From the NCBI RefSeq assembly GCF_964355755.1, contig NC_092675.1, forward strand, positions 6,319,812 through 6,383,811: a DNA stretch of 64,000 nt, given 5' to 3'. Shown here piece after piece: positions 3,356 to 33,288 of this stretch (position 1 is the first letter of the stretch; each line of letters opens with the position of its first letter). The stretch comes from Antedon mediterranea (lineage: Eukaryota > Animalia > Echinodermata). The position numbers were made by a program, and so were the translations under genes. The notes under the pieces were generated by a model. It had not been told where the DNA came from. It saw nothing but the letters and a program-made list of their open reading frames with translations, and made no database searches.

Positions 3356-4944
3356 CCAAGCAGTTTACAATAATTACATTAATCATGCGCAATTACATAA
3401 AAAGTACAAACTTCATACTATGCATAAATAAAGTATAAAATTTCATTACAAAGCTGCAGTTAGATTTCAAAGTACAGTAGTTCAAACAAAATAAGAAAAA
3501 CCTGGTTTTGAAAATGATGATGTATCTATTATATTTATGTTTGATACAGGATATAAAGTTTCCTATGATGATCTTATCACAAAATAGATAAGTAAAAAAT
3601 TAATTAAATGTTTGAAATAACTCTTGAATTGATTAATTGATGTTTAATATCTTATATACAGTAAATGAAGTTATAGAGATATTCATACTAAATATATTCT
3701 ATTTATAGTAATAGACTCCTTATTGGTCCTAAAATTTAATAACAGCATACACAGTGTTGTAATAGATGAATATGCATTATCTACACACTGATAGTGGGAT
3801 CCAATTTTTTTTTTTCGCAAGATGAAAGTTTATGTGAATAAAAAAGCGAATGTTTAAACTTTAATTCTTACTCAAAATGATGAAAACAATGGCCAAAAAA
3901 AAAAAAAATGAAAACAGGATTTTCGTTACATGTAGGAACTACTGAACCTTGTTTGAAAATCGCATTAACTGAATAAATGTACTGTATGATGCATCGCACA
4001 CCTACGGTTTGTCGTTATCATGATAATAATATACGTAAAAACAGTAAACTGCAAACAAACTTTAGATTAGAGAGTGCACAGTGCAGTCACTTTAAGAATC
4101 GTATGATAGTACATTATGTGGTAAGCCTCCCTAGAATCCCGTTTTAAAAAACAAGTCTTCGATAAAGATAAATCACACAATCTCTCCTTCAATTTTCTCA
4201 GCTTCGTTGTAAAAAATTAGAGGCCTACTGTAGGCAGAGAACTGTTAGTTTTTTTGTGGGGTAAATTCATTTTTGCAAAATCTTTTTCCTACAAATTGAC
4301 TTCAATCGTCCAAATTTGCAAATGAGAATATCATGAGTGTGGAGTGGATTAATTAAAATGGAAAAAAAATTATGCAATCTACAGTACAGTATGTAATCAG
4401 TGTAATTGATTGATATTGATAATGATAATGTAATGAATGAAGTAGATTATTATTTAAAGGAAAATGAGACAATGCTGTCGGTATCAGTGGCTAGATTTCA
4501 ATGGAGATACAAAATAAAATAAGCAAAAAGCTAAATCAAAACAATACAGTAAAACAGCCAGAAAAAGTAACAGAGATTTCAGGCAACACTAGCCCTTCAT
4601 CAGTGCAAGTATATTATTGTTGATATATAAAGAACTGGACATACTGTACAGCGAGTCTTTATATATAAAACAGTTTTAGTTTTAGTGTTTCATCATATAA
4701 AAGGCTATCAACATGATTTGTACTGTATTTGAACCTGCCAGCATCTTGTTATATGTAACTTATAAAATTAGTTTCCTTAAGGCCTTTCTTCACTGGCAAT
4801 TAAAGAGTTTATAGCTTACTATTGTAGCTGATGTATCAAAATAGTGTATAGAGAGCAGAGAAAAATAATGATAATTAGGAATATTTTCTGAATACACACT
4901 ATTATTTTCTGCATACACACTATTATTGTACTAATAATAATGGA

Positions 4945-7871: not shown

Positions 7872-8346
7872 CCTCAGTTTATTCTCTTTTATTATGAGGG
7901 ACAGTAGCCACTAGATTACATTGCTTTGGACAAAGGTAGGCAGGGGCAACAATATTCTTTCAATAGTTTTGAGTTCTTTTGTTGTTTTCTATTGAAAAGA
8001 AAAGAAAGGTTTTTAAAAAAGCAAATAAAAATAATAAAACCCATAAAAACGAACCAATCTTGAAAACGATTTTAAAAACCACAATTTGAATCTTGATCGT
8101 TAAAAACAGTTTCTGTGAATAATTCTGTTACTGCCTTCGAAGGTCACATGAATAGCACGATTATCATCTGGGGATGACAATAATGTCAACCAGTAATATT
8201 TTGTTACAATGCATTGCAATGCAATCTATATATCAAAAATACAGAAACCGGTTTTGTAAAATATAATTTTATAATAGCATAACAGAGCATAACAGAGTTT
8301 TACTGCTTATTTTCAGGACTAATGATGTGAGAAGATAACCAGTAGG

Positions 8347-8437
8347 ATGAAGCTGCTTGAAGTGAGGCGTTTACTAGATGCATGGTTCATTATTACCTCT
8401 ATGTTCCATGTTACTGCATATGCCTACAACAGATGTG
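8347..8437 (+). CDS. Cytokine receptor coding exon 1, signal peptide (MKLLEVRRLLDAWFIITSMFHVTAYAYNRC)
   Basis: Acceptor tttcag ending 8316, ATG at 8347, moderately hydrophobic leader ending A-Y-A, donor G|gtatgt, phase 1. Confidence 0.75.
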
Positions 8438-11400: not shown

Positions 11401-14400
11401 AGAAAGAACAATAAACCTACAGAATTAATATAATGATAATATAAACGTTGTTATTTATTTTAAGAGGTATTAGTATTTTTACGTCAGAGAATCAATTAGT
11501 ATTAAACATGTTTTACAATGTATATAAATAAAAAAATCCCATCTTGCCTTTCCAGAATGTCGTCTGCTTATTTTTAAAAATTAAGTTACAATATATTAAA
11601 AAATGTCAGTCTTAAGCAATGTACAGTAAATGCTACATGGAAGTCCTTCTCAATTTATGACATATTATAGTGCATTTACTGTATAAATTAAAAGGATTTA
11701 ATTTATTATTATAATATTATGTCATAAATACAAAAGTTTGTAATTTATCAAAGGTAAAATTACAATGCTTTTGAAGATTATTACTCTAGGGGAAATATCG
11801 CTATACATCTGAAGTCTTAAAGTAGTCTTTAGAGTCAGTTCACAGTTAGTTAATGTTTACATGGACTAAATGTGAACATTCAATTTAACCCAGCAGTGGG
11901 TAAACCTGAATTGAGTCCAAATTAGGCTAAGTCAGTCTGTGATGTATAGTGGTTCAGGGCCAATTATTTCTGAACATATACCTAGAATAGCAAAACCAAT
12001 AATGAAATTGCTATACCATTATCCCTTAAATCATTGTGTCATTTTTATTCTTTTGAAAACCACTGGTCGCTGTTTAATAATTTTCAGTGAAATTATGAAG
12101 AAAAATATAATGCTTCTTTCTAAAAATCGTTTACAGTAATTCTATTTTGTAAGGTGATCCATTTTGGAGTTTTCTATCATCCATCTCAGAATTTCCCATC
12201 ATCCATCTCAGAATTTCCTATCATCCATCTCAGAATTTCTCATCCATCTTAGAATATTCCATCATCCATCTCAGAATTTCTTATCCATCTCCGAATTTCC
12301 CATCATCCATCTTAGAATTTCTCATCATCCATCATCTTTATCGTGCAATTATTGTACTGACCCAAAATCAAAGCAAGTGTATCAAAACTAGGCCATCGAA
12401 AATTGTAACTCAAGACGGAATGATAATTTTGAGCCCTGATACTGAATTTCAATCAGCAAGTGTTAAAGGACACTTATCAATGATATTTTCACTATTCTCT
12501 AGCAATGTATTTTCATTGTGCCATAATGAAAATAGTGAACAAAAATATTAATAATGATAATCTTGTTATTCTTGAGAATAATTACTAGTGATTATCACCT
12601 AAAAACAACATGAAACCTAGACTCCTAGCAACAAATCTGTAATCAATCCATAAACATCTTTATAAATAAATTTAGTATGCTATGCTAAATTTACAAAGCT
12701 TTCCTAATATCAAAATTGTATTCATAAACCAGACAATTTGCTAGCCCAGGGAAGAGTAGCCTTACTCATAGAGATATTATTAGTAGACGACGCAAGAGCG
12801 ACCAGTGAATATCGGCAAATCATGCAAGTTTCAAGCTCTACCACTGTGACTGCATTAAAAGCTAGAATGATTCTCACATACAGAAATTACTTGTTTTATT
12901 ATGCTATTTATTAGTATTAACAAGCATTTTATAAAAAGTGGGATTTATTTTTGAAAAAAAATTGTTTTTGCTTACTTTATGTTTATCTCCATTGAGATCC
13001 AGACATTGATACCCACATCATGGTAATTTTTTCAGTGATTTGTCTTTTGTTACTTTTTTAAACAGATTTACACTGACCATTTTAAAGAATTTTACACCAG
13101 AGTGGTTAACTCTCTATCTGTTTCCTAAAATATCTCTATGGTCTTAAAAAAAAAGGTCCCGTATTCAATTCTGAAGGTAATGAGTTGTTACGAGCTCATT
13201 TTACTTAAGCCTCGGCATTATGTGGTAGGATGCCCAGTTCCTTTCCACACTGCCTAGCCCTCCTCTTGTACGATAGTTTGAAAACATTCAAAATATTAAG
13301 AATGAGTGATTTGATGTTTCATACTTGGCTTTCAATCAAATATTTCATAACAAATATATTTTCTAGTTTAATTCTTATAACTATCTCTATTTTTAGTAGC
13401 TCAACAACCACTGAAATGTGAGGGAGTCAACTATACATCTGTTCGGTGCAGTTGGAGTCCAGTAATCAATAACCAGTACACAGTGCAATGGTTCTTGTAA
13501 GAATAATTTCCATGTCTTTCGATACCACTGCCATAGAAGTCCATGGTTCAAGCCTTAAGCACTGTCTACACTGTCAAACTAGTTTGACAAAAATAGTGTG
13601 ATGTGCTCAAATATGGTAGCGATATTCTCACATGGTAGTGATATGACATCAGCATGTTCATATTTGTGTACATCACAAGTTTGATAGTGTAAACAGAGCT
13701 TTAGAGTGCAGACCATTCAATGGCTTCATATAAAAAAAAAGAATTTTGTACAAAGTTATTGTTTTTGTTTATAAATGTATTTACTCTGTTGTTCCTTTGT
13801 ACATTTTTGATTTAATTAAGTTTAACCCCCATCAGCTTTCATTTAATTACAGGTGTCGACTTTGCTCCTCTAATGATCCTACCAGACTTTTCGTTCCACG
13901 ATCTAATCGGAAAGCTGGTGACAATGCGTTTTCTGTTGCCGCTCCGTGGATCTGGAACGCGCTACCTGTTGATTTGAGAGGAGTGAATTCTGCACCTCTA
14001 TTTAAACGTCAACTTAAAACTTTTCTTTTTAATTAATTACTTAGTATTGTTAGGCGCTCTGTTCTTTGTAAGGCGCCATATAAAAACCTGTATATAGAAT
14101 AGAATGTTAAAAAATAAAATATATTGCTAATGACCACACCTGTACTTGGGTATAATACCAACTATTTTAACGTTTGTACCAATATTAATCAGTGGCTGAA
14201 ATAGGGAGAGGGAGCAGGTCTAAAAATAGTAAAATGCAATTTGTTGAACTTTAACTCCTTTAGAATTGTAATTAACAAAATTGCCCAGCATGTGCCCACC
14301 TCCCCTTTTTTAATCAGTCCATGGAAATACTCCATGAATGGTATAGAACACACAAAGATGTAATTTACAGATATCGAGTAGGAAACCAAACAGGAAATTC

Positions 14401-17400: not shown

Positions 17401-20400
17401 GCCGTTCCAATAAATATTTTAGGTTTGAAAAACAGTTTACTTAATAATAATAGACAAACAAACAGAGCTGAATCAAGGCGTTTAAGTAATATTAAAATCT
17501 ATAATTTAAAGTTTTTCTCTTTTATAATATAATAGCAAGGTTTCGCAATCTTACGAATACGATAACGAAAACGGATACGTCACGCACACGTATTCGTTTT
17601 TCGTAAGCCAGTAAAAATCTGTTTCGCATGGCAACGAAATATTGAGGGCGCCGTCCAAAATATGACTGCGGTAAATGTGAGCATAGTCAATAGAAAGTAA
17701 ACTATAATGTGAGGGAAGCGCAGGTACGTATTGCTTGGTGCTTGGCTGCCTAGGCCTAGCGTAACATCAAAGCGAGTGAAGACTTTAAAAATTGCTATTT
17801 TATCAAAATTTTCCTGGCATTTTAGTAAATTACTTTAGTAAATTACTTTCAATAAAAGTATAATTATATTATAATCATGAATCATTCCTGATTCAAATGC
17901 AAAATGTGCAAAATAGATCAAAAACTATACTCGTTTTGTAGTTACGAATATGACTGCTGATATTCGTCAACACGAATACGCTTTACGAATATGAAATGGG
18001 GATCAGCTCAAAAGTTTCACAAATGTGTGACGTATCCGTTTTCATTATCGTATTCGTAAGGTTGCGAAACCTCCCTATTATATAAAACATGTTTTACTGG
18101 TACTTTATACTTCCCATATACAGTAACAGCTTTATGGATCTGACACAGTTTACAGCACAATAGCTTTAAAGCTTTAAAACCACTTTTACTACAAATAGAT
18201 TTATAAATATTAAATATTGACATTTTTTATTGATGATTTTTTTAAACCCATAATCTACATTGCAGAGATTCTTCCGTTATCTGTGAGGATTCGCCATTAA
18301 TCAACAGTTCTTATATCTGTGATATTCATAACTTGGGATCTGGCTATTATCGGCGCATCTTAATAAACGCCACCTTTCAAAACCAAACCGAAATCTTACA
18401 GACCTACTATTCAGCAATGGAATGTGGTGAGAAAGTTTGTTTATTTCTGCTGTAACTGTAAAAAGTAGAAAGTGACCTTTTCAAATTAGACCAGCAGCGG
18501 AACTGATGGTCACTGTAAATCTAGGCCTAAATAACATGGCAATATTTGACCCTTTTGTACCTGAAAGAGTCTTACCCAGTGGTAATTTTAAGTACTTTGC
18601 TTATTACACAGTAAGTTCAGGAAACTTTAGTTTTGTCAACTTTAAAGATGTATTGTTCCCCAAAAACAAAAACAAATGAAGGTTAATTAAATCAGACTTT
18701 GAATATGTTATTTTGTAGTTTTAATAAAGTTAATCACTTCCGTAGAAAAGAAAACGTGAAAAAAATGTTTTTCGCTTACAAAATGACAAAATAAATGGTT
18801 AAATTCAACCAAAACCCAATTGGCATTGGGTCGCAGCCAATTTGTTTGACCATTTAAAAAAAATACAGTATTTTCAGATAAATATATTTATTTTTTTGAT
18901 CCAATTTTTGCTCAAAGTGGATAACTATTATGTTACATTAAAATGGCATATTCAACCAAAATTTTGTTAAGAATTATTTTTTTAGGGGGACAATACATCT
19001 TTAAGCATTTAGTTTTATGAAAACCCCAGATTTACTATACAGTATAGATTTTTTGAAATTTTAGTTGAAATAAATGTGTTTGCAAGTTATATTGTATCAT
19101 TCTGACCGAATTGTTGACTATTTTGTTCTAAGCAGCATTAGCACATTTTACACACACTAGCATAGAAAGAGTTGTGTAATGTATTTGTGTGGGTTTCCAA
19201 GGTTGTCTTATATTATTCTACAATTGTTAGCTAGATTATGATCATAACCTTGTATTAAATGTTATCGGACGTTTCAGTGTTAATAATAACTTAATAATAT
19301 TAACGGTAAGCTACATCAAACATAATCACTTAGTGGTTATTACCTAAGCATAGTTTACCATAGGAATTATTAAAGCCTAGAAAAATGAGAACTTTTTAAA
19401 CTCTCTTTATGCGCGAAAATACTGTTTATGGTCGAGTTGGTATGAAAATTATAGGGTGGAATTATACTCGGATTAGATTAACAATGGATTTACCTATTAG
19501 AGCCTGGGGTTATACTCGGTCATGGTACGGAATATCGTTTCTAAATAAATTGAATCATTTATTTTCACTAACTGGATAGAATCAAATATATTCCAGCGGC
19601 ATTTAAATAACATGAGATAAGATAAATCATTTAACATGCTCTGTTGAACTAACAATAACATTGATAATTGAAGTAAAAAAAATACATATTTCACTTGTAA
19701 TATAATTTCTAATTCTATATTCATCATGAGAGTTTCCTATAGAAAACTGTTTGGACAGAAATGACAGTTGCGCAGAAAAATAAAATGCTGTTGATTTAAT
19801 TTCTTTACTTTATCGTTTATCTGAGACCAAGTGACAAATCTTACCAGTATCACAGTTTGTAGGCCTAATAATTATATTGAAATGTATTTTAGTTTTATTT
19901 AAAACTGGTAGGAAAATATAGTAGAACATCTATTAAGGGGACACCTTTGAGACCCAACAAAGTGTCCACTAAATATACAGTAGGTGTCCCTTAATATACA
20001 GTAAGTGTCCACTTAATATACAGTAAGTGTCACTTAATATACAGTAGGTGTCCCCTAAATAGGAGCTGCTTGTAGTGTTAAAATATATATTTTCGTTTCA
20101 CTTAAAAGTATCCCCTTAACCCTTTGAAGACGCGAGGTTTATACCCCAAGTGACTGAGGCTAAATATATTTTTAATAGGTTTAGGAAAAATGCAAATACA
20201 TTTTTATGATTGTGTAACTCTCTGCAATTGTTGTTGGTTTTATTGATGTGAAATGTTTTGGCCTCCCAAAAAATTGTTTAAATGCTCATAAAGTGCAATT
20301 CAGTGACCCCAAAAAGTCAACCCGTACATATACGGGCCTCGCGTCCTGGGACAGTAAATTACCTGTATGGGATACAGACCTTGTCTTCAAAGGGTTAATG

Positions 20401-23400
20401 AGTTGGGGTGTCCACTGAATATTCAATTAATTCTCTTTTGTCAATCTAGCCGTACCAAATCCGCCTAGCAAAGTTTTTGCTAAGCCACTAACAAGCAACT
20501 CGTTTGAAGTGTCATGGACTGTACCAAAAGATTGGCCTCTGGACAACGAACAGTTACTTTCATATCAGATACAGTACCAGTCTGAGTTTGACAACAAATG
20601 GAGAGAGGTGAGGCTGTTTAAAGATAAGTTTGATAAATTTCTGATTTCATTGAGCTAAGCATTTTACCTTCCGAACAGTGGATATAATTTTGCAGTGGCA
20701 GAATTAAAGGAGCCCAGGTCATTGTAAATTAAAGTTTGAAAATAAATGTCCTATTTTTTTGCATTTTAATTTTCAAAATTAAAAGGTAGAGGTATTTGTT
20801 GTCATCCCCAAGCTTAACTAGAAATTGACGAAATTTGAATTAGACCCCCTTTATGGACCCACGAAAGCCAGCTGTGTAGCGCCAGCCCCTCCCCCTTGGA
20901 TGGGCCGCTTATGTAAAGAAATAAAGATACAAAACACATTCCAACATTAGAAGTTTCAATCTTTTTAGATAAAGATTGTTAAAACGTTGAATACTCAACA
21001 TGTGTTCCATTTCTCTTTTTATATATCTTCTTGAACTGTAGATATAATTTAAACATTTCGTAAGTGCTTTCACCTTTTTGGAATAGGCTGTTTTTTCTTG
21101 TTATTAAAGTAGCGTTTCCCGTAAGTCTAAAGGAGTATTATCTGGTTTCAGGTTATTGAAATTTCTGTAGACATTACATTAACATATTCCAGCTGTTTAT
21201 ATACATGAATCATAACATTTTAAAGAACTGTGATTAAATTTGTATTATCTGAATATAATTCTTTATGTTAAACCATTGATATGCGTACTTGTCAACCAAT
21301 CTGCATCTGGCAATGACTAGATGCTAGTGGTTGCTAGGAGTGGCTTTGTTATACAGCAGCGCCCCTTTTGGTAGCCTTGCTAAATTGATGTTATTTCTAC
21401 ATTTGTATTTAGGCGAAGGATAGCCACACTCAAAAGCCTCCTTATTCTCAGACGGTATCCAACGTACCTTATCATTGTTCTAGCTACAAAGTGAAAATCA
21501 TATGTAGAACTTCAGGTGTGACGGGAAAACAAAGTGCGTGGTCTAACATTGTGTCTGTACGAACAACCCAGCTTGGTAAAGTTTAACATATTTATTTTCA
21601 ATTTAATGCTCTGTCTACGCTATCAAACTACAGTAGTTTGACAAAAAAAGTGTGATGTGCCCAAATATGGTAGTGATATTACATCATCATGTCCATATAT
21701 GGGCACGTCACATTTTTTTGTCACTTAGAGTTTGATAATTTAGACAAGGCTTTAGATCTTTCAAGAACCTATGTATGAAATTATTGTGTCATATCGTATA
21801 ATTTGTACCATGCACATTATGCAGTATACTGCACATCTACTTTAAGGCCTTCAGTAAAATACAGTATCTATTATACAGTACAGTACTGTAAAATATAGTA
21901 CATTTACAGTTTCATTTCATTTCATTTATTTATTTGACCAACAAAACATAATATACAATGTACAAAGATGAATTGGTCAGGGACTGCTAAAGTAATATGA
22001 TTACTGTAACTACAAGAGTCAGCAGTCCCATGATCTTAACTAAAATAAATATATAATTTTATACACAAATAAAGTATAAAGCTGTGAGTTATACAGTTAT
22101 ATAAACAGTATCCTATACATTACATTTGCGATATACAAAAAGCCTACATCTACAGCTAATAAGCCTATAGAAAGTTGGAAAATATTGGAAAAACTATGTT
22201 TAGATATAACGTTTTTCTTGTACATACTTAAAATTATGTACACAAATATATATACAGAAAACATTAATATTATGAACATTATTTTATAATTTTTCGATTA
22301 GATAGCCAAAGGCCTGTTGTCAGTGCGTAGATCGCAACATATAATTATGCAGAATTATGTTGTCAAGAAAAATTAAAAAAATGTATAGAACAATTGATAA
22401 ATATCAAAGTATGTTGTCTGTCTCTTCACGCTTGATACATCTCCTACAGAAATGAAGATTATGTTATTATTTTTCAATTATGTTTCATCTTTTAATTATT
22501 TTTTTCATGTTTATAATGAGGCATGTTTCTACTGATAAGATATTTACTATTAAACCTAGAATTCCTTGGAGAAGATGCATACTTCATTTTAACAGGATAA
22601 ATAAAATGTTGAAATGAAATTCTGCAAAATGCATGAAATTGAAATTACCAAAGCAAATCATTGAAGTATACAATTCATTTTTTGCTGGTCTATGGCATTG
22701 TTGAACATTTTTGAAGTTATATATACTCCAAAAGATAAATATATAAACAATGTATTTAGATGTACTCTGTATTGAACCTTTTTTTAACATTTGAAAATGT
22801 CTGTTCAATTGTTAATAATTGTTTCGCTGTATACGTATGGTTCTGAGTAACTTTAATAATCCCTCGGGTAATGTACTCAATAAGCGGTAACTTCAATTAA
22901 TCAGAATATTAAATTATGCTATATTTATCAAATCTACATATCATGGAACATCTGAGATAGTTAGGGTGATTATTGAACGTAGACGGTTATGTAAACACCG
23001 CCTATCTCGGAATTAATCATATCTTTACATTACCTAATGCCATGGAGTCAGTGGCATAATGACTATGAGCGCTCACTTGCTAAACCCAGGGGCCCCGGAG
23101 CTTATGGGGCCCCTGACAGTTCCCAGAGGAAAAAACAGGCATTAAAATATGTTGGAAAAAGGCTAAAAATTCCTGAGGCCTCCAGCGTTGGAGGGCCACT
23201 TAAGGTTCCTAAACCATGGAGTACTTTACCTTGTGTGTGTATAACTATACAGTCAGCTCTTTCAAAACTAAAATTTTTGCTCAATCAGCCCTAAATTACA
23301 AAAAACAAGCAGGATTAGTTCTGATCAAAGCTCTATTGACAGTTAGAGCAAACTGTCAATAACAGTTGGTTTATAATGAAGAAATCTTTCTATATTCTAA

Positions 23401-26400
23401 CACAAGATGAAATTATTTATACAGAGTCTCAAATTAGTTCATCCTTTTAAATTACTTAATAAATACATACTGACAATCATGAAAGCTAAGTGCTTCAGTT
23501 TTGTTTGTGAATTAGTTGATGTTTCAAGATCAGTGTCCTTAAAAGTGTAATAAATTTAAATATCAATCAAAAACGAAACTATATATGTGCAGTTTATAGG
23601 CATCAGCGCAATCTCATTTTTCTCCCTGAGGGTTCTTGGCACCCATATTACAGACGCTTATTTTCTGTCCACTCCAGAGAAAGCGTGAACTAGTAGAGCG
23701 AAGTAACCCCATAAAATTTACACTGGACTCTTTCGAGAAGACTCTTCGAGTGAGTGACTGTATCCATGCCATTGAAGCAGCTAACTGCCTCCATATCTTA
23801 ATCGCACAATCATATACACACATTTATTCTATTCATACGTTTTGACTTTGACTTTCATAAACCCTTTTAAACTTGGGCATAATGTTATATAATTATGTAT
23901 GAATACTTGGAAATATAATTCTGGAGGCAAAAACAATTTTCTCAATAAATTTGTACCTTTCATTTCAATAGATGTAATTTACTTTCTCTAATAAAATGTT
24001 TACGATCTTGTACATTTTGTGCCACTGTACCATGCATGAATGGTTTGCATGTACGTGTGCAGTATAACTCGGCTCTAAACAAATGAATGATTGATGTCGT
24101 TTGCTATTGTTGAAAGTTAAATAATAAAACTGCCTTTTGCTAATAAATTTATATTTAGCATCATAACATAACATATCTTTCCTTTATCTCTAACTAATTG
24201 CAAATATATAATTGGTCAGATGTTTTGCCCTACTCTGACGTAATTTGTACTTTGTACTAAGTACATTGAGAATAAATTGGGAAAATATATGCAAGTAATT
24301 CTAGGGTGAGACTAGAACCCACAACCTCTAGATCACTAGCCTGGCGTTCATATCTCTAGACCACCGAGATTGCGCTGATGGCTATAAACTGCAAATATAT
24401 AGTTTATAGTTATTTAATTTTGTTTTTCAATACTCTTAAGGTATAAAATATAGAGAATGTTTTTTTATTCATTATATGATTATATATTTCTGGTTCAAAG
24501 CCTGTGGCTCTATTCACCAATCAAATTTAAGTGAGATATTTCCATTAAATATTATGTATTTCACTTAACTTAATAAATATCATATATACTTAACTCAATA
24601 AATATTTAAGTATTTCCCTTAAATCTTATTCAATTGGATTCGAGAGATTATTTTAATTTTAATGATTGGTGATTCCCTTACCTAAATGTGAATTGTGAAT
24701 ACGGCCACTGGTTTACAGTACAGGTAGGTGAAAGTTTACAGTGAAATAAAATGTGAAATGTTTTACTTACAGCGCCTATTGGAGAGATACATAACATCGA
24801 TTTTCAACATCTGTATGACAAGAAAGACAGCCGACGTGTTTTATTGATGTGGAAGGTAGCTATTAACAAACCTGTATCCCTTTTAATAGTTCTTTGCTTA
24901 AAAATTATATGTTTACATTGAACTGATCAGTTTCATTGAAAATGTCATGAGAAAATCACAGATGATTGTTGAAAGATGTGATGTTATGCCTTAATTATAA
25001 AACCTAAATTGAAATTGAGAAAGGTATTAACACTGCAGACATATTGCTTTTATGGCTTTAAATCTCTATAATCTCTATCTAATATCTATAATCTCTATTT
25101 AAATATCTACAATATGCTATATAGGCCATTATATATATTTTATATTATATATTCTAATTTACCTCCGCCAATTAAATTTTGGGATTTAAATTTTCCCAAT
25201 TCTGGACCACTTTTTAATATACTTTTCAGACCTGTTAGTGTTAGTGTTAAAAGATAGGACAGAATTTTTCAAAAGCCGGAGAGCAGTCTTAAAGTAACAA
25301 GTAAACTGAAATTGCATTTTCTCGAGAACTACTTGTCCAAAAAACTTCATTTTTGTACAAGAGGCAAGAGTTATAATTTGTGATTTGTAATTTTAAAACA
25401 TAATTTGATTTAATGTACACCTTTTTTGATGCGAGTAGTTTAAAAACCCTATTTCTTTTCAAATTCACTTGTTTGATTTTTGCGTTGCTGTTCTATTGTT
25501 AGTCAACTGAAGCTATTGTTTAATTGAAAGGCTTGTTAATGTTACATAACCATTACACCAAACTCGCATACACATGCTTGTAGTGAAATAAGCCTAAATC
25601 TCAAACAGCATTAAGACACACACAAATATATTTTTTCATGGAGAAATCTTATGTAGGGGAATTTTACAGTAGGCGGAGGTATGCACTCTCGGAGTGGCTT
25701 TCTAGTTATATGTTTTCATTGTGCAATTGGGACCGTTTTAGAGGTGTTTACCACCTGTTGATCCTATCCTTCACTAATGTGTTTTGTCTTTCTGTACTGT
25801 TTTATAGTGAGAAGTTGAATAAATTTAAAAGAACAAACCAAAAGTTTGCATTTGCACTATGACCTTTAATTACTTTAGAAAATACAGTATAAACACAATT
25901 GAAATTTCAGTTATGCTTAAAACGGAACCCCTGTGGGAGGAGCAAATATGCAATAACACTATAGTTAAACCCTATTCAAAGGGATATTTTATTTGGCCCC
26001 AAAGGTGTCCCCTAATATGGGTTCCACTATAATACATTTATATGCAAAGTTGATCAACACAGTTAAAGACACCTTCCCTACAATTTGTGAGGTTTTGTAA
26101 AAATAATACATATACATAACTTTAAAAACATTAAACCAGGTCATTCCTTTGTCTTAAATGTACGTTTTATGGTAAATTATGATAAAAAGTGAGAAACAAT
26201 GCACTACCTAAGTAGCTCGCGGCGACTGACCTCTTGTGGACGGTCTTTAGGCCTAGCTCAGCTAGGCTTAGTTTTGTAGGCCTAGCTGGTAAACATCGGT
26301 AACGTACGAACATCGTACGCTAGCTATATACCTGACGTTGTATAGTTGCTGCATTAATTGTCTTTCTATTTTTGCCAGACTCCGTTGATACAAATTGGGG

Positions 26401-29400
26401 AAAACCCGGTATTTTCGCTGAAAAGTTAGGAGTCTTCCATTTGTTTTGGCTTCACGATCGATCGAAAAGTGGGCGAATTACAGGTGAAAAACAAAAATAT
26501 CAATCCGCGCGCAATGCATTTTGGGATTTATAGCGGGCCGCTATAATTATTAGAATCAACTTATTTTTCACATTTTTAACCATTTAAAGACGAAAAAAGT
26601 TATCACAATGCCAATAGGACCACATAGTATTATTTTTACATTAAATATAGTTTGTGATCTTAAAGACCCCTTCCCTGCAATTTTGGACGTTTTTTGGAAA
26701 ACAATACATATATATCACTTTAAAAACATTAAACCATGTCATTCCTTGTCTTAAATGTACGTTTTATGGTAAATTATGATAAAAAGTGAGAAACAATGCA
26801 CTACCTAAGTAGCTCGCGGCGATCGACCTCTCGTGGACGGTCTTAGGCCTAGCCTAGCTAGGCTTAGTTTTGTAGGCCTAGCTAGTAAACATCGATAACG
26901 TACGAACATCGTACGCTAGCTATATACCTAGCCTGACGTTGTATAGTTGCTGCAAATTGGGGAAAACCCGGTATTTTCGCTGAAAAGTTAGGAGTCTTCC
27001 ATTTGTTTTGGCTTCACGATCGATCGAAAAGTGGGCGAATTACAGGTGAAAAACAAAAATATCAATCCGCGCGCAATGCATTTTGGGATTTATAGCGGGC
27101 CGCTATAATTATTAGAATCGACTTATTTTTCACATTTTTAACCGTTTAAAGACGAAAAAAGTTATCGCAATAGGACCATATAGTATTATTTTTACATTAA
27201 ATATAGTTTGTGATCTTAAATTAGATCTAAAAAACGTAGGGAATGGGGCTTTAAAATAGATCTAAAAAACGTAGGGAAGGTGTCTTTAAATGTGTTGTGG
27301 TATTCTGACCAAATAACTTTATAAGTCAATCATAGTCTTTAATTTAACTTGTTTTTTATATCACTGTTTTTGTTATATTTACGTGTTTAATTCTATACTT
27401 TGTAATGTTTATATTTTTTATTTTAGATTGTAAAAGGATCCCAATGGAAATAAGCTGATAAGCTTTTTGGGCTATCCTGGAAAATCTTTTATAAATGTAT
27501 TATTTGTAATGTCCGTAATTTATGTTATCACTTTGTATGTATTTTTTATGATGATTTTCCAAATAAATTCAATTCAATTCAATTCAACAATAACCACGCA
27601 TTTTGCAATATTGTATAAGTTATAAAGTGGTTGCTGTTGTTATGTCTCTGTACTATTACTAATTTATATGAAAACCTAATTCGCTAACAATAACATTCTT
27701 CTTTTTTTTGCTGGTATGAATACCATTTTGCAATAGAGCAATAAATGTTTATATCTATAGTATTCCATCTAGATTCAAAACAGATAATGAGAAAGAATTG
27801 CAATATGTTTAGGTTCATAAATTATTACAAAAATAAGTACTAAAGAAACTATTTAATATTTGCATAATTTAGTTAAGGAATGAATAAAATGTGGTTACTG
27901 CTGTAATAACTGCAGGGTATTAACTTTGACATGGTCCTTAGGAGTGTTTTAATTATTAGTGCAGAGGCAATTTTAATATTTATGTTCAATTAATTCTTAT
28001 TCCTCAGGTGGTCATCTCTTAGTTTGTTTAGAACAAATTAGGTAAATTTAGACTATAAATATATTGATGAACATGATATTATAATATTTTGTTGATTTCT
28101 TTTAGCCTATTCCGTTAACAAAGGCGTGTAGTCCAATTCTGGGTTACTATATAATGGTTTGCAGTGCACCAGACAAGTGTACAGTCATCAGTATTCCATA
28201 TAACAGTACGCAGTACTATGTCAAAGGTATTTATAGATTTCTTTTTTAATCAAACACTCTTTAATTATCTAGTGTTGTCAGAATTAATATAGATTATTTT
28301 TATTAGAGTATTCATCTAAATGTCTGTCTACACTATCAAACTTCATGTGACTTTTCGCCCATTTATTATATTTGGGCATATCACTACCATATTTGGGTAT
28401 ATCACTACCATATTTGGGCACATCGCACTTTTTTTTAGCAAACTAGTTTGATAGTGTTTTATCTAGTTTGATAGTGTAGACAGACACATGTGGAGTATGA
28501 ATTTGTTTTTGGTGTTTTTGATTCATAAACACTTTTTTTTACATATAAAAGATAAAAACATTTCTTCTAGTAAAATCTGATTTCAATAATAATATAGCTT
28601 TCTTTCATTCATTCAATCTCTCATTTTTGTAACTTCTGGTCCATAGAAAATAAGAATATACGTATATATTAACGTAAAAATAAACTCTACTTTTACTATA
28701 ATACAATAAGACATTCCCTCATCTCAGGATGGTATTCCACCTGGAGAGATTTTTTGACTTATAATAAACTTATAAAGTCTAATAATTTAATTACCACCTG
28801 TTTAAAATTAAATTACATTTTATTTTTCAGACTTGGATGCAAGTTTGGCTTACACAATATATCTGAGTGCATACAACATTGTTGGACAGTCTCAAATGGT
28901 TAATATAACCATCCCAGCAGGTGTTCCTAGTACACAACAAGGTAAAACTGATTAAACGTAATATAATTAAAAATAATAATAATCAACATTTTTATCTCAC
29001 CAGTTAAAAAATGATTGTATAGTATACAACGGTTTTTAAATTAATTTTAAAAGAATCTAAGGTAGGTGAATGTTTGACAAGAAGTGGGAGTTTTTTTTTC
29101 AAAAAAGGATGAAACGAAAAAAGTTTTTGAGTTGAATAGGGAGAGTATTTCCATGAGTTGCCAGATTCCAATTAAACTAATATTTAACAAAAAAACTGTA
29201 TTATTATTAACTGTTTTATAACAAAAAAATTAACTTGCATTCAATTGGGCCGCTGGTGCCAAATCTTCCAGCAACAGGGAACCATGGTGATACACGGCTA
29301 TTGTGCATGAAACTTACAAATTTGTGCCTAGCAGCATCAACTGTGTTTTGTTAGTGTTTGCCTCTGCTTAAAGTCTACTTCTAGACTTATTGTGACCACC

Positions 29401-32400
29401 ATCCATATTTATAAATATTTAATGATTTATTAATATTATTTGTAGAAACTAATAAACAAAAACTACTAACCATCTATGCTATGTTTACCCTCCCCAAATC
29501 ACAGTCTTATCAAATCTTTGTTTTTGCAAACACAACATTAACACATTGTATAATTGTATATAATAATTTACATATACAATTGTATCATCTTTGGAACCTA
29601 GATGGTAGGCTAGGACTAAACCATTGTAAAAGAAAACGAGACTAGACACAGAGTAGAACAATTAACATTTATATATTAAATTTCTATGATAAACTCATAA
29701 TCAGCAGGACTTTACATAACATTAATTGAAGCAATTATAGATGACAAACACTATTTGATTTCTGTTTCTTGATCTTCTTCGCTCCTACACCCCTCTTGCT
29801 TGTCTTTGTTCAGCTGATCAAAACCTAGTGGTTGTTCCTAGAATAAACGCCAAATCTTAAGGACAAAGGTCTTTTATGTTCTCTGCTGCTTCTCTTTGGA
29901 ATTCTCTCCCTCGACATATTACTAAATCATTCCTAGAATAAACGCCAAATCTTAAGGACAAAGGTCCTTTATGTTCTCTGCTGCTTCTCTTTGGATTTCT
30001 CTCCCTCGACATATTACTAAATCATTCCTAGAATAAACGCCAAATCTTAAGGACAAAGGTCTTTTATGTTCTCTGCTGCTTCTCTTTGGAATTCTCTCCC
30101 TCGACATATTACTAAATCATTCCTAGAGTAAACGCCAAATCTTAAGGACAAGGTCTTTTATGTTCTCTGCTGCTTCTCTTTGGAATTCTCTCCCTCGACA
30201 TATTACTAAATCATTCCTAGAATAAACGCCAAATCTTAAGGACAAGGTCTTTTATGTTCTCTGCTGCTTCTCTTTGGAATTCTCTCCCTCGACATATTAC
30301 TAAATCATTCCTAGAATAAACGCCAAATCTTAAGGACAAAGGTCTTTTATGTTCTCTGCTGCTTCTCTTTGGAATTCTCTCCCTCGACATATTACTAAAT
30401 CATTCCTAGAGTAAACGCCAAATCTTAAGGACAAGGTCTTTTATGTTCTCTGCTGCTTCTCTTTGGAATTCTCTTCCTCCACATATTACTAAATCATTCC
30501 TAGAATATTCGCCAAATCTTAAGGAAAAAGGTCTTTTATGTTCTCTGCTGCTTCTCTTTGGAATTCTCTCCCTCGACATATTACTAAATCAACATCTATT
30601 GCTATTTTTTTTAAAGAACGTATCTTTAATACAAGCGCCTTTGATTTTTACTTTGGTTTAGTTGGTACTGGCGCTATACAAATACAGTACCTAAATTATT
30701 ATTATTATATTGGTATAAGACAAGTTTTTTTACTTCTATTTCTAATCCCTGAATCAGTTCCTGTTTATGGTTACCATTTAACTTATTGTAAATGTAAATA
30801 TATGTATGCTTGTTTGTTTTTTCCTTTTTTCTCGGACTGTTTCAAATAAATGTTAATGAATTCTGAAAAGCAGATCAGTCGACAACTTTGCATGGCAGTC
30901 GGAAAATTATAACATTTTTAGAAAACGTTCATTCGTGCCATTCACTAGTGCCTATAATCATTAAATATCAATTCTCCATGGAGTAGTAATACTGAGCGGG
31001 ATGTGATACTGTACATAACATAATTTAATCAATCAAATGGCAAGGATACACTCAGGTGTGTTGGGATACTGTGTAGTACAATTAGAAAGAATAAATAAGC
31101 GTAAATAAAACATTTAAATGTTAAAATAGACAGTATATCATATGACAATTTGTGTTTATAGTGGAAGTGTCCTCCATCACATATTGTTAATTGGTATAAT
31201 TAAACACATTTCAAATAAATCATACTTGATGCTTAAATGTTAAAAGTATTAAAGATACACACGTCATAGCGTAAGTCATTATTGATTACTTAGCGTAATC
31301 AAAACATTTGAGATGGCTTTAAGCATATTATGTACTTTACTGTTTTATGCAAAATACCATAGGGGAATTAGTGTAAGCAGTCTATGGAGAATTTAAACGA
31401 TGGCTTGTTCCCTGGTATTAATGTTCATACATTTTTATGGTAAAAATGATGAAATTTATGCCTAAAACAATAGCAGGCTGATTCTCGGTACTGTATCTAT
31501 AATTGCTACAGTATCAAAGGAAAATTGTGTAATACAGTGTAACATATGTATCACATGTGCCATTCCTAGCCTAAAATTAACACATAACAGCCGTCACATG
31601 TGATTCATACAGAATTTGCATATGATACTAAAGCAGTAATACCATATATGGAGTATAGAGAATCGGGTGATTATGGATTAAATTTATAACCAAAAAAAAC
31701 CAAAAACATCGGTAACTAACATCTGGTCATATTGCATAAATATATAAATGTTAGTCACAATGTTTGCTTTTCTAAAGAAGTAACAAGTTAGCAACTCATT
31801 TCCTTTCACTAAAACTGAGGCAATTCAATGGACGCAATAACTGTATTGTTTCTCTAAAGAGAAGCACAAATCTCAACAGATGTATGCAACAAGTATAAAG
31901 ATACATACAATACAAATACAGTACAATTTAGTGCTTAAAATTATAGTTAAAAAAACCTTATTTGCTCTATTTAATGTTAATGTTTTTGTTAAGTGAAAAG
32001 CCAGTTAGATCATGAATAAAATAAATGAATAACTGCATAAAGGAACTATTGCTATATACTTTTTACGTCTGCTAGTTCATCTCTAATTATTTTTTACAGA
32101 TATTACGAGTAATTCTAAAGATAGATATGTTCTGTATGTTGGCCTAATTGTGCCGCTCATAATTCTAACAGTGATTCTAACCCGCCTCGTTTATCACAAG
32201 CTCACTACTCTCTTTCAACCAGTTCCAGAGCCGAACATTCCTTCATTTCCAGTAAGTTAAACAAGTTTTTATGTTCAAATGTATTTAAGACCAGAAAATA
32301 ACATGCGGGGTTGTTTGGGCAAGTAAAAGAAACCTTGCGTCTGCCCCTGTATCCATGTTGACTAATCGTGTGTTGACTTTACCCTTTACATTATATTTTG

Positions 32401-32946
32401 TGAATCTGTTAATAAAACGTTTTTATTTTACAGGAGTATAAAAATTCCACTCTATACAAATCGGATCACAAAGACAAGGAATTTTACACCCTTCTCAATG
32501 AAAACAATGATAACTTACCAAGAAACATAGAGGTGAAAATTGAGAAGCCACCGGTGTACCAATACCGCTCGGTATCAGTGAGTGACAGTGGTGAACTTGA
32601 AGTTGTCGAATACCAGTTACTTCTTTGTGAAGATTACGTGAAATCTGTATCAGAGGAAGATCTATCTGGTTATAGCGGCAATAGCAAAGATTCAATATCA
32701 CCTTATACAAGGCTTGCCGGTGACGCATCATTTTACAGTGGTGGTTCAAAACCCATAGCACAGGATACATCTAAATACGTGAGGCCAAAGGTGGCTAGTA
32801 ATACTATAAGATCAGAGAAGATTGCAATGCAAGGTAAGCTCCTCGAGAAGAAGTTGCAACAGAGAAACTGCAAGTTCATTGTCTGTAGAGAAGATGGGTA
32901 CGCAGTGATCGTAGAAGATGTACGACAACGAGAAATCAATTCATAA
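8347..32946 (+). CDS. Class I (helical) cytokine receptor, gp130/Domeless-related, ~550 aa; join(8347-8437,13397-13496,18266-18426,20450-20607,21413-21575,24773-24855,28106-28226,28831-28941,32100-32251,32434-32946)
   Basis: Ten GT-AG bounded exons join into one open frame of 1653 nt. Signal peptide; C-x9-C-x-W plus second Cys pair; PNPP hinge; QSAWS at the WSxWS position; gp130-like FnIII (RVLLMWK/PIP...ILGY...AYNIVGQS...TIPA); TM; Box1-like FQPVPEP; Tyr-rich tail. Confidence 0.9.
8577..10914. repeat. 82-bp minisatellite, ~28.5 copies
   Basis: Unit starts at 8577, 8659, 8741 ... 10873; only a few variant sites; contains palindrome CACCCTAGGGTG. Confidence 0.98.
12172..12334. repeat. ~20-bp degenerate tandem repeat (CATCCATCTCAGAATTTC)
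   Basis: About eight imperfect copies. Confidence 0.9.
13397..13496 (+). CDS. Cytokine receptor exon 2 (VAQQPLKCEGVNYTSVRCSWSPVINNQYTVQWF)
   Basis: ttttag acceptor (TAGTAG tandem), C-x9-C-S-W signature, gtaaga donor, phase 1 to 2. Confidence 0.88.
13556..13703. mobile_element. ~150-bp palindromic MITE (CTGTCTACACTATCAAAC termini); further copies near 14593-14730, 16170-16278, 21608-21753, 28321-28484
   Basis: Five recognisable copies sharing inverted ends and the gtgatgtgcccaaatatggtagtgat core. Confidence 0.8.
13740..14105 (+). mobile_element. L2-like LINE 3' fragment
   Basis: GDNAFSVAAPWIWNALP...FKRQLKTFLF C-terminal motif; short-repeat tail. Confidence 0.85.
17534..18075. mobile_element. 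MITE (Harbinger-like, AGGTTTCGCAA termini)
   Basis: ~50-bp inverted ends; second copy at 35288-35771. Confidence 0.8.
18266..18426 (+). CDS. Cytokine receptor exon 3 (DSSVICEDSPLINSSYICDIHNLG...YYSAMEC)
   Basis: ttgcag acceptor, second Cys pair, gtgaga donor, phase 2 to 1, open frame. Confidence 0.85.
18646..19000. mobile_element. TTAA-targeting (Kolobok-like) MITE
   Basis: TTAA|AGATGTATTGT...ACAATACATCT|TTAA; same family at 1-140 (partial) and 59026-59328 (inverted). Confidence 0.85.
20120..20394. mobile_element. piggyBac-like MITE nested in an older MITE (~19918-20420)
   Basis: TTAA|CCCTTTGAAGAC...GTCTTCAAAGGG|TTAA; host has gtgtcccc/ggggacac subrepeats. Confidence 0.85.
20450..20607 (+). 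CDS. Cytokine receptor exon 4 (VPNPPSKV...FEVSWTVP...YQIQYQSEFDNKWRE)
   Basis: FnIII first half with PxPP hinge, conserved W and YxIxY; ctag acceptor, gtgagg donor, phase 1 to 0. Confidence 0.92.
21413..21575 (+). CDS. Cytokine receptor exon 5 (...YKVKIICRTSGVTGKQSAWSNIVSVRTTQL)
   Basis: FnIII second half with YxVxIxCR and WSxWS-like QSAWS (21530-21544); phase 0 to 1. Confidence 0.92.
21911..22870 (-). mobile_element. Old LINE 3' fragment (minus strand)
   Basis: (TTTCA)n(TTTA)n tail with adjacent hairpin gggactgct...agcagtccc; coding remnant heavily decayed; far boundary approximate. Confidence 0.45.
24301..24372 (-). mobile_element. Decayed tRNA-derived sequence (SINE head)
   Basis: Minus strand shows A-box ggtggtctagag and B-box-like gggttctagtctcac. 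Confidence 0.5.
24502..24710. mobile_element. MITE (GGCCGTATTCAC termini); related copy 38573-38715
   Basis: ctgtggctctattcacc...gtgaatacggccactg inverted ends. Confidence 0.65.
24773..24855 (+). CDS. Cytokine receptor exon 6 (APIGEIHNIDFQHLYDKKDSRRVLLMWK)
   Basis: ttacag acceptor, RxVxLxWK as in the first membrane-proximal FnIII of gp130-type receptors; phase 1 to 0. Confidence 0.88.
25159..25707 (+). mobile_element. Non-autonomous Helentron/Helitron2-like element
   Basis: ACCTCCGCC / GGCGGAGGT sub-TIRs, 3' hairpin cactctcggagtg, ends CTAGTT. Confidence 0.65.
26067..27285. mobile_element. TTAA-targeting (Kolobok-like) MITE containing a second copy of the same family (26664-27250)
   Basis: TTAA|AGACACCTTCCCTAC...GTAGGGAAGGTGTCT|TTAA outer; TTAA|AGACCCCTTCCCT...AGGGAATGGGGCT|TTAA inner; bodies near-identical. 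Confidence 0.9.
27290..27587 (+). mobile_element. LINE 3'-UTR remnant with (TTCAA)n tail
   Basis: ggatcccaatggaaataagc...ttttgggctatcc hairpin, AATAAA plus microsatellite tail; related to ~51325-51500. Confidence 0.55.
28106..28226 (+). CDS. Cytokine receptor exon 7 (PIPLTKACSPILGYYIMVC...QYYVK)
   Basis: ttttag acceptor, resembles gp130-type PLP..EANG.IL.Y motif; phase 0 to 1. Confidence 0.88.
28831..28941 (+). CDS. Cytokine receptor exon 8 (LDASLAYTIYLSAYNIVGQSQMVNITIPAGVPSTQQ)
   Basis: tttcag acceptor, FnIII L..Y.I.L.A.N..G.S motif, gtaaaa donor; phase 1 to 1. Confidence 0.9.
29760..30710 (+). mobile_element. L2-like LINE 3' fragment with internal 95-bp tandem expansion
   Basis: LVVPR...GQRSFMFSAASLWNSLP motif; ggcgctatacaaat and (TAT)n tail. 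Confidence 0.8.
29835..30590. repeat. 94-95-bp tandem repeat, 8 copies
   Basis: ttcctagaataaacgccaaatc recurs at 29835, 29930, 30025, 30120, 30214, 30308, 30403, 30497. Confidence 0.97.
32100..32251 (+). CDS. Cytokine receptor exon 9, transmembrane helix plus Box1
   Basis: YVLYVGLIVPLIILTVILT hydrophobic run then LFQPVPEP (32210-32233); gtaagt donor; phase 1 to 0. Confidence 0.9.
32434..32946 (+). CDS. Cytokine receptor exon 10, cytoplasmic tail to stop
   Basis: ttacag acceptor in frame with ORF 32533-32946; 12 tyrosines; AATAAA at 33484 and 33521 downstream. Confidence 0.88.
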   Translation, partial: EYKNSTLYKSDHKDKEFYTLLNENNDNLPRNIEVKIEKPPVYQYRSVSVSDSGELEVVEYQLLLCEDYVKSVSEEDLSGYSGNSKDSISPYTRLAGDASFYSGGSKPIAQDTSKYVRPKVASNTIRSEKIAMQGKLLEKKLQQRNCKFIVCREDGYAVIVEDVRQREINS

Positions 32947-33288
32947 GCAGATTATGGTTTTATTGCGGTCAGCAGGATTGTTTAGAAGAGAAGATGGGTA
33001 TTTGGTGATCGTAGAAGATGTACGACAACATGAAATCAATTCATAAGCAGCTTATGGTTTTATTGCGGTCAGCAGGATTGTTTAGAAGTGAAGATGGGTA
33101 TGTGGTGATCATAGAAGATGTACGACAACGAGAAATCAATTCATAAGCAGCTTATGGTTTTATTGCGGTCAGCAGGATTGTTTAGAAGAGAAGATGGGTA
33201 TGTGGTGATCATAGAAGATGTACGACAACGAGAAATCAATTCATAAGCAGCTTATGGTTTTATTGCGGTCAGCAGGATTGTTTAGAAG
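32887..33288. repeat. 100-bp tandem repeat, 4 copies, spanning the receptor stop codon
   Basis: aagatgggta at 32891, 32991, 33091, 33191. Confidence 0.97.

What the first reader, a model, noticed from the sequence alone, without database searches (positions are those of the whole stretch)
8347..32946. Hidden invertebrate class I cytokine receptor with a compact 'cytokine module + one FnIII' ectodomain
Seen: ten small exons over 24.6 kb splice into an intact ~550-aa ORF with signal peptide, C-x9-CxW and second Cys pair, PNPP hinge, QSAWS, a single further FnIII, TM, Box1-like motif and long tail. Established: gp130/G-CSFR/Domeless-type receptors have three membrane-proximal FnIII domains and GHR/EPOR/PRLR have none; few class I receptors are characterised in invertebrates. 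Inference: this is an intermediate-length JAK/STAT receptor, implying an unidentified helical cytokine ligand in this animal. Whether it is already annotated cannot be told from the sequence.
Basis: partly seen in the sequence, partly recalled or inferred. Interest (0 to 1): 0.85.

Follow-up and report, generated by a model that had tools for sequence, protein, structure and literature searches.

The report
Short-stalk cytokine receptor of feather stars
This ten-exon feather-star gene encodes an unnamed gp130-like cytokine receptor with one stalk domain instead of the usual three, a form shared by many echinoderm and acorn-worm relatives, and it likely signals through JAK/STAT in response to a ligand that has not been identified.

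Summary
Ten GT-AG exons splice into an open 550-aa frame, identical to NCBI XP_071953074.1, 'uncharacterized protein' of the crinoid Antedon mediterranea. So the gene is already modelled but not named. An Anneissia japonica orthologue has the same layout and is mislabelled 'DSCAM-like'. Sequence, profile and fold searches rank gp130 first; the ectodomain superposes on gp130 D2-D4 (Z 17.4, rmsd 3.5 A, 281 residues). No hidden Ig or FnIII exon was found in the introns, but the exon 8-9 junction was not seen in reads. The form is not unique: of 36 membrane-anchored relatives measured, 19 have one stalk FnIII, 8 have three and 9 have five; the 18 named one-FnIII proteins come from crinoids, sea stars, brittle stars, sea cucumbers and hemichordates, four of them from Antedon. 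Box1, a Box2-like motif and two strongly conserved tyrosine blocks suggest a JAK-coupled chain; YxxQ is absent. JAK binding and a ligand are inferred, not shown. Verdict: new variant of a known kind, interest about 0.5; the family expansion matters more than this one gene.

The parts
8347..8437 (+). Exon 1 coding part: start codon and likely signal peptide (aa 1-30)
   Evidence: equals NCBI model; helix 2-27 in model
13397..13496 (+). Exon 2: first half of cytokine-module domain 1, C38-x9-C48-x-W50
   Evidence: independent profile hit iE 5e-4
18266..18426 (+). Exon 3: second half of domain 1, C70/C82
   Evidence: conserved in orthologue; not found by the independent profiles
20450..20607 (+). 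Exon 4: PNPP hinge and first half of domain 2
   Evidence: Pfam fn3 6e-5, CRLF2-like D2 3e-4, both under the curated cut-off; profile iE 5e-15
21413..21575 (+). Exon 5: second half of domain 2 with degenerate WSxWS (QSAWS)
   Evidence: profile iE 1.4e-6; an 850-letter contig of run X1 lies on this exon only and stops at its donor
24773..24855 (+). Exon 6: start of the single stalk FnIII (gp130 D4-like)
   Evidence: iE 0.048
28106..28226 (+). Exon 7: middle of the stalk FnIII
   Evidence: iE 0.0011
28831..28941 (+). Exon 8: end of the stalk FnIII and linker
   Evidence: iE 1.9e-5
32100..32251 (+). Exon 9: transmembrane helix and Box1 (PVPEP)
32434..32946 (+). Exon 10: cytoplasmic tail with Box2-like motif (aa 396-401) and two conserved tyrosine blocks (aa 419-453, 515-543), stop codon
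   Evidence: 30 of 35 and 23 of 29 identical to the orthologue

Best explanation
The gene encodes a single-pass class I cytokine receptor of the gp130 lineage with a cytokine-binding module and one stalk FnIII, and it likely works as a JAK-coupled signalling chain. Shown: gene structure, domain order, fold match to gp130 D2-D4, Box1, conserved tyrosines, and a wide family with the same short stalk. Inferred: a secreted, probably four-helix ligand binds the elbow between domains 1 and 2; with no Ig domain the chain would offer only the elbow site, so a second chain is needed, either another copy or a height-matched one-FnIII paralogue (two Ig-sized-N-terminus paralogues, P0050 and P0111, and one Ig-less paralogue, P0022, are recorded on a contig of the same length); dimerisation would bring JAKs held on Box1 and the Box2-like motif together; JAK would phosphorylate the conserved tail tyrosines (Y422, Y424, Y440, Y448, Y471, Y536), which would recruit SH2 proteins. 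Because YxxQ is absent and two sites fit [VS]xYxxL, docking is predicted to favour SHP2/SOCS-type or non-STAT3-type partners, with STAT docking possibly supplied by a partner chain.
For: Best PDB sequence match gp130, E 2.4e-8, query 118-323 on gp130 198-397, then CNTFRa, LIFR, IL-12Rb2. Profile of 27 relatives: gp130 2e-74 against 1e-54 for titin. Model mean pLDDT 71.6, blocks over aa 121-320 at 81-98; Foldseek rank 1 gp130, 306 columns, rmsd 4.1, against rmsd 7.8-19 for three-domain adhesion/phosphatase fragments in the top 20; VIA-align Z 17.4, rmsd 3.5, 281 aligned, model 33-325 on gp130 107-399. ESM Atlas: the top feature and structure hits are IL-12Rb1, OSMR, G-CSFR, IL-31RA, gp130 clusters (score 0.96; TM 0.64-0.66). 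The stalk domain scores best on the first stalk domain in 14 of 17 long receptors. C38, C48, C82 kept in 25 of 27, C70 in 22 of 27, W213 in 24 of 27. PxP Box1 and a Glu-led motif about 25 residues later fit the Box1/Box2 description in PMC5394478 (passages read); a pattern for the latter, written after seeing the sequences, matches 27 of 36 relatives against 3.8% of shuffles. Tail blocks are more conserved (86%, 79%) than the ectodomain domains (57-59%).
Against: No JAK, STAT or ligand was tested. No YxxQ in either orthologue. The family's conserved Asp in the Box2-like motif is Thr here. The W-to-third-Cys spacer is 19, below the published 26-32 (PMC1963337), and the first Trp of WSxWS is Gln. 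In gp130, deleting any of D4-D6 abolishes the response (as reported in PMC10022904, passage read), so a D4-only stalk is not signalling-competent by default. Domain 1 is modelled less well (block pLDDT 59-83) and the tail poorly. VIA-align ranks an L1CAM FnIII pair at Z 15.3, only 2 below gp130 (rmsd 8.7, 192 aligned).
Confidence: 0.68

Rival explanations
1. It is a class I chain that dampens signalling: it would bind JAK and a partner receptor but recruit phosphatase/SOCS or drive endocytosis, in the manner of Drosophila Latran/Eye transformer.
For: No YxxQ, two conserved [VS]xYxx[LI] sites; altered Box2-like motif; Latran is a short, STAT-site-less antagonist next to dome (PMC2914635, passages read).
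Against: Tail is about 185 aa with 10-13 tyrosines and two highly conserved blocks; many long-tailed relatives also lack YxxQ, so its absence does not mark a decoy in this family; Latran has no FnIII and has an LDHR region.
Confidence: 0.16
2. It is a JAK-coupled class I receptor, but its ligand is not a four-helix cytokine (for example a lectin coiled coil or another secreted protein).
For: No IL-6-family ligand was detected in invertebrates in PMC13203501 (discussion part 1 read); a shrimp C-type lectin is reported to activate Domeless (PMC5645147, search listing only); the module has a short Cys spacer and degenerate WSxWS.
Against: The module keeps the gp130 fold and elbow geometry; helical cytokines diverge too fast for sequence searches (general knowledge; PMC12284397 passage makes the same point for lamprey leptin).
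Confidence: 0.09
3. It is an ordinary tall gp130-like gene whose Ig and D5-D6 exons were missed in introns 1 and 8.
For: Introns 8438-13396 and 28942-32099 are phase 1 and large enough; the exon 1-2 and exon 8-9 junctions were not seen in reads here; profile scans missed real exon 3.
Against: Best Ig-profile hit in intron 1 iE 3.5, best stalk-profile hit in intron 8 iE 1.1; no cluster of tblastn hits there from 172 proteins; 2.3 kb of intron 1 and 0.76 kb of intron 8 are tandem repeat; two NCBI models in two crinoid families agree; 7 Logan proteins on contigs of 2.3-7.3 kb (likely transcripts) show the same 114-aa stalk in a sea-cucumber relative.
Confidence: 0.04
4. It is a generic FnIII adhesion or phosphatase-like protein, as the 'DSCAM-like' label of the orthologue says.
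For: Database label; many FnIII-rich proteins score high by summed repeats; neogenin, contactin and PTP fragments are in the Foldseek top 12.
Against: Four-Cys/CxW, WSxWS-like motif, Box1 and a continuous three-domain match to gp130; adhesion matches have much larger rmsd or cover only two domains; no Ig array or PTP domain.
Confidence: 0.03

Closest known systems
gp130 / IL6ST and the tall group-2 class I receptors (G-CSFR, LIFR, OSMR, IL-12Rb2; PDB 8dpt_A, 3l5h_A)
   Same: Cytokine module and first stalk FnIII superpose on gp130 D2-D4; single TM; PxP Box1; tyrosine-rich tail.
   Different: No Ig domain, no D5-D6 and so no D4-D5 bend; QSAWS for WSxWS; short Cys spacer; no YxxQ; extra Cys192/Cys260 found only in the two crinoid orthologues (2 of 27).
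IL-12Rb1, IL-27Ra, IL-31RA (Ig-less tall receptors)
   Same: Ectodomain starts directly with the cytokine module; IL-12Rb1 and IL-31RA clusters are among the top language-model hits.
   Different: They have three stalk FnIII (IL-27Ra per PMC10022904; the others recalled); this has one.
Leptin receptor
   Same: Reduced stalk (two FnIII; PMC12284397); Z 15.7, rmsd 5.3, 292 aligned.
   Different: LepR has two cytokine modules, an Ig domain and YXPQ.
Drosophila Domeless and Latran/Eye transformer
   Same: Invertebrate class I receptors; a long and a short paralogue side by side.
   Different: Dome has three FnIII and an LDHR region; Latran has no FnIII (PMC2914635). No Dome sequence was compared here.
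NCBI models XP_071953074.1 (Antedon, 'uncharacterized') and XP_033123016.1 (Anneissia, 'DSCAM-like 1 homolog')
   Same: The first is this protein letter for letter; the second is its orthologue.
   Different: Neither label names a cytokine receptor. Two one-FnIII relatives do carry such labels: P0022 'IL-12 receptor beta-2-like' and P0025 'IL-6 receptor beta-like'.

Membership tests
Class I cytokine receptors | Two tandem FnIII folds forming the cytokine module | tested here: met
   model 34-223 aligns to gp130 108-301, Z 15.1, rmsd 3.0, 183 aligned (1i1r_A)
Class I cytokine receptors | Two Cys pairs with C-x9-10-C-x-W and C-x10-15-C | tested here: met
   C38-x9-C48-x-W50 and C70-x11-C82; conserved in 22-25 of 27
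Class I cytokine receptors | Spacer of 26-32 residues between W and the third Cys (PMC1963337) | tested here: inconclusive
   19 here and 21 in the orthologue, below the range; but a named vertebrate G-CSFR-like protein in the same call has 22, so the range does not separate members from non-members
Class I cytokine receptors | WSxWS, variation allowed as in GHR (PMC1963337) | tested here: met
   QSAWS at the gp130 WSxWS position (alignment); degenerate at position 1
Class I cytokine receptors | Single TM and proline-rich Box1 | tested here: met
   TM 339-361, PVPEP 371-375, identical in the orthologue
Class I cytokine receptors | Box2 20-40 residues after Box1 | tested here: inconclusive
   Glu-led motif about 25 residues after Box1, shared by 27 of 36 relatives, but pattern written after the fact and the family Asp is Thr here
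Class I cytokine receptors | Binds JAK and a helical cytokine | not testable with these tools
   no crinoid JAK or ligand sequence was on hand
gp130-type tall (group 2) receptors | N-terminal Ig domain | tested here: not met
   33 residues precede the module; no Ig-profile hit in intron 1 below iE 3.5
gp130-type tall (group 2) receptors | Three membrane-proximal FnIII | tested here: not met
   module end to TM 114 aa, one FnIII hit; tall relatives 294-353 aa
gp130-type tall (group 2) receptors | YxxQ STAT docking site | tested here: not met
   0 in both orthologues
   one FnIII present; PRLR scores far below gp130 with the family profile, 7e-32 against 2e-74, though over fewer domains
DSCAM / receptor phosphatases | Ig arrays, many FnIII, or a PTP domain (recalled) | tested here: not met
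   Pfam shows only fn3 above cut-off
Latran/Eye transformer-type decoys | No FnIII stalk, LDHR region (PMC2914635) | tested here: not met
   stalk FnIII present; no 200-aa room for an LDHR

The most novel reading that the evidence does not exclude
Echinoderms and hemichordates independently expanded class I cytokine receptors into a multi-chain system with one-, three- and five-FnIII stalks; the one-FnIII chains pair by height into heteromeric JAK/STAT complexes, with Ig-bearing and Ig-less partners and divided tail functions, for a family of undiscovered helical cytokines. This would be a second, parallel cytokine network outside vertebrates, using a stalk geometry that gp130 deletion data predict should not signal.
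Probability: 0.3. Interest if true: 0.8.

Novelty: new variant of a known kind. Interest (0 to 1): 0.5.

Why it matters
Published surveys treat invertebrates as having one or two class I receptors (two in Ciona, PMC1963337; one in amphioxus, PMC12284397) and one states that sea urchin has no apparent cytokine receptor system (PMC3296744). The relatives found here show at least four such receptors in one crinoid and three stalk lengths across Ambulacraria, mostly unnamed or mislabelled. That gives comparative immunologists baits for finding deuterostome invertebrate cytokines. It also gives structural biologists a natural D4-only stalk with which to test the idea that the D4-D5 bend is needed to bring JAKs about 30 A apart (PMC10022904). 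Against this: invertebrate gp130-like receptors are known, echinoderm 'IL6R' entries are already mentioned (PMC13203501, PMC4503460), and the gene model is public.

Tried and rejected
No whole genome is held, so paralogue positions, JAK/STAT genes and ligand candidates could not be searched. Sequencing runs: no RNA holder listed on record (X1 is only guessed to be RNA); no splice joint was among the 15 of 902 joints shown, which were repeat-driven. First fold with a 2-sequence alignment was poor (pLDDT 49.6; its Foldseek rmsd about 21) and was replaced. Word-indexed homologue searches found only the two orthologues or drifted to myomesin/Dscam. ESM Atlas on the tail gave no usable hit (TM 0.17-0.24). 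A splice-site scan of introns listed 11 candidates in intron 1 and 5 in intron 8, none FnIII/Ig-like by eye, but its thresholds would miss 3 of the 9 real acceptors, so little weight is put on it. Single origin of the one-FnIII class: the free tree needs 5 label changes and nests the hemichordate ones beside hemichordate five-FnIII receptors (98/94), but the AU test does not reject one clade (p 0.101); left open. A D5-D6 duplication as the source of five-FnIII stalks: an in-register match appears in 5 of 9 but FnIII domains resemble each other anyway; left open. No complex prediction was run, since no ligand or JAK was available. No second receptor gene was found elsewhere in the window. Searches of earlier findings by words and by genome gave nothing on this gene.
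Full report
1. The observation. Reading the window and splicing by coordinates gives ten exons from 8347 to 32946, nine GT-AG introns with phases 1,2,1,0,1,0,1,1,0, and an open frame of 550 codons. The first five phases match the 1-2-1-0-1 pattern that I recall for class I cytokine receptor genes (recalled; PMC1963337 says the splice pattern is conserved, but I did not see its figure). A search with the last exon returned 2 proteins of 512 candidates: P0001, which equals the spliced product letter for letter and is NCBI XP_071953074.1, 'uncharacterized protein', Antedon mediterranea, and P0002 from Anneissia japonica, labelled DSCAM-like, 57% identical with the same layout. The two species lie in different comatulid families. 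The gene is therefore modelled in public data but not named.

2. Are exons missing? Profiles for the Ig domain, the module, the first stalk domain and the later stalk domains were built from relatives, leaving out both orthologues, and run on 595 stop-to-stop peptides of the + strand. They found 6 of 7 ectodomain exons (iE 5e-15 to 0.048; exon 3 missed). The best intronic hit anywhere was iE 0.16 (intron 5); the best Ig hit in intron 1 was 3.5 and the best stalk hit in intron 8 was 1.1. tblastn with 172 proteins piled up on exons 4, 7 and 8 (67, 14, 40 non-self queries) and gave only single-query hits at E 0.045 or worse in the introns. In one search an 850-letter contig of run X1 lies on 21411-21575 only, ending at the exon 5 donor, while contigs of X3-X5 run through the introns; this is a weak hint of a spliced molecule, and X1 is only guessed to be RNA. 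The exon 1-2 and 8-9 junctions were not observed in reads. In a sea-cucumber relative, 7 Logan proteins on contigs of 2.3-7.3 kb, likely transcripts, have the same 114-aa stalk.

3. What it is. phmmer against the PDB ranks gp130 first (2.4e-8), then CNTFRa, LIFR and IL-12Rb2 (29 hits); a 27-sequence profile gives gp130 2e-74. An AlphaFold2 model on that alignment (mean pLDDT 71.6) shows three beta-sandwiches, a TM helix and a low-confidence tail. Foldseek ranks gp130 first (rmsd 4.1, 306 columns) and VIA-align gives Z 17.4, rmsd 3.5, 281 aligned, model 33-325 on gp130 107-399. Adhesion proteins also appear high in both lists, but with rmsd of 8 or more, or over two domains only. The ESM Atlas agrees. 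The single stalk domain corresponds to gp130 D4: it scores best on the first stalk domain in 14 of 17 long relatives.

4. The family. HMMER over 1.84 billion representatives gave 448 hits at E up to 0.001, 150 listed, many of them generic FnIII proteins. I hand-picked 48 proteins (46 of the listed hits plus P0001, and two cluster members, counted within the 48) with long or module-spanning matches and measured the distance from module end to TM; P0146 and P0160 were dropped for lacking a module, and 10 had no TM. Of the remaining 36, 19 have 103-137 aa (one FnIII), 8 have 294-353 (three) and 9 have 503-557 (about five). Names were looked up for 30 proteins. The 18 named one-FnIII proteins come from Antedon (4), Anneissia (2), Holothuria (2, adjacent locus tags, one named through its cluster), Apostichopus, Asterias, Patiria, Amphiura (2), Glandiceps, Ptychodera (3) and Saccoglossus; some have an Ig-sized N-terminus and some do not. 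The four Antedon proteins are recorded on a contig of the same length (31,698,884), which suggests one chromosome; positions are unknown. Three-FnIII forms are named from sea stars and a caecilian; five-FnIII forms from sea urchins, a brittle star, a hemichordate and amphioxus. The sample is biased towards the query and rests mostly on predicted gene models, so absences (no one-FnIII sea urchin, none outside Ambulacraria) mean little. A 46-row tree (299 columns, rooted on three rows of which one is a named vertebrate) leaves this gene's pair unplaced in a polytomy and needs 5 changes for the one-FnIII label; the AU test does not reject a single clade (p 0.101).

5. How it likely works. Shown: PVPEP follows the TM and is identical in the orthologue; a Glu-led motif lies about 25 residues later and is shared by 27 of 36 relatives (3.8% of shuffles; pattern made after the fact), with the family Asp replaced by Thr here; two tail blocks are 30 of 35 and 23 of 29 identical between the orthologues, against 57-59% for the ectodomain domains; neither orthologue has YxxQ; both keep two [VS]xYxx[LI] sites. 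From established knowledge: Box1 and Box2 bind the JAK FERM-SH2 unit, with a receptor Glu in the SH2 pocket (PMC5394478, passages); gp130 uses its elbow for site 2 and its Ig domain for site 3, and the D4-D5 bend brings the membrane ends about 30 A apart (PMC10022904, passages). Inferred: this chain binds a ligand at the elbow only, pairs with itself or with a height-matched paralogue, and signals through JAK to SH2 proteins (0.68). Cys192 and Cys260 occur only in the two orthologues (2 of 27) and sit, by alignment to gp130, in loops at the module-stalk interface; a bond that locks this hinge is a guess, as coordinates could not be measured. Rivals: inhibitory or accessory chain 0.16; non-helical ligand 0.09; missed exons 0.04; adhesion protein 0.03.

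6. Comparison and novelty. It is filed as a class I cytokine receptor (fold, four Cys, degenerate WSxWS, TM, Box1 met; Cys spacer and Box2 inconclusive; binding untested). It is not filed as a gp130-type tall receptor (Ig, three FnIII and YxxQ not met), though it is built like gp130 D2-D4. Ten paper searches returned lists; eight of them aimed at invertebrate or echinoderm receptors, and none showed a description of this gene or of a one-FnIII echinoderm/hemichordate class. The library lacks most subscription papers, including lamprey and amphioxus surveys cited in PMC12284397, so absence is not proven. Seen: passages of PMC1963337, PMC3296744, PMC12284397, PMC2914635, PMC5394478, PMC10022904, PMC4503460; passages, discussion part 1 and a supplement search of PMC13203501 (no Antedon, Anneissia or Patiria; figures not visible); listing only for PMC5645147. 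PMC13203501 includes sea urchin and Saccoglossus 'IL6R' entries with three to four FN3 domains as the norm, and PMC4503460 reports raised 'interleukin-6 receptor' contigs in diseased sea stars, so echinoderm gp130-like genes are known in passing.

7. Verdict. Observation confirmed; interpretation supported with corrections. New variant of a known kind. Interest 0.5: the gene is public and its superfamily is known in invertebrates, but the short-stalk class and the multi-receptor repertoire appear undescribed and make the ligand and stalk-geometry questions testable.

Noticed in passing
window 32887-33288 +: A 100-base unit in 4 copies (95% alike) begins inside the coding end: the last 19 codons, including the conserved Y536 site, and the stop are repeated three times in the 3' UTR.
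   Followed up: partly
window 8301-8346 +: An acceptor-like tract ends at 8316, so non-coding exon(s) probably lie upstream; a two-codon upstream frame (8322-8330) precedes the start codon.
   Followed up: no
window 8577-10915 and 29835-30591: Tandem arrays in introns 1 and 8: 82 bases x 28.5 (98%) and 95 bases x 8 (97%). The second translates like the end of a LINE reverse transcriptase (recalled resemblance, untested).
   Followed up: no
window 38259-50198 -: Exons with LDL-receptor class B, EGF and Sushi domains and a possible cytoplasmic exon with an NPxF-like motif: an LRP-like gene on the opposite strand, tail to tail with the receptor.
   Followed up: partly
window 51849-53030 - and 59950-61134 -: Two similar single-frame RING/B-box (TRIM-type) genes of about 390 aa in tandem.
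   Followed up: partly
window 4879-6478 + and 40143-41263 +: Broken LINE-type reverse transcriptase fragments (RVT_1 at 4.9e-4 and 1.4e-10).
   Followed up: partly
window about 26050-27240 +: A block of about 600 bases is present twice in intron 6 (seen) and is a high-copy repeat by depth.
   Followed up: no
proteins P0018, P0055, P0070, P0080, P0096, P0102: Class I receptors with about five stalk FnIII in hemichordate, brittle star, sea urchins and amphioxus, mostly labelled sidekick-like, PTP-like or uncharacterized. Stalk lengths fall at 1, 3 and 5, as if domains were gained or lost in pairs.
   Followed up: partly
proteins P0022, P0050, P0111 (Antedon); P0131, P0044 (Anneissia): Further crinoid paralogues; P0022 has a 79-aa tail with one tyrosine, P0050 and P0111 have tails of 680 and 438 aa. 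Candidates for partner chains.
   Followed up: partly
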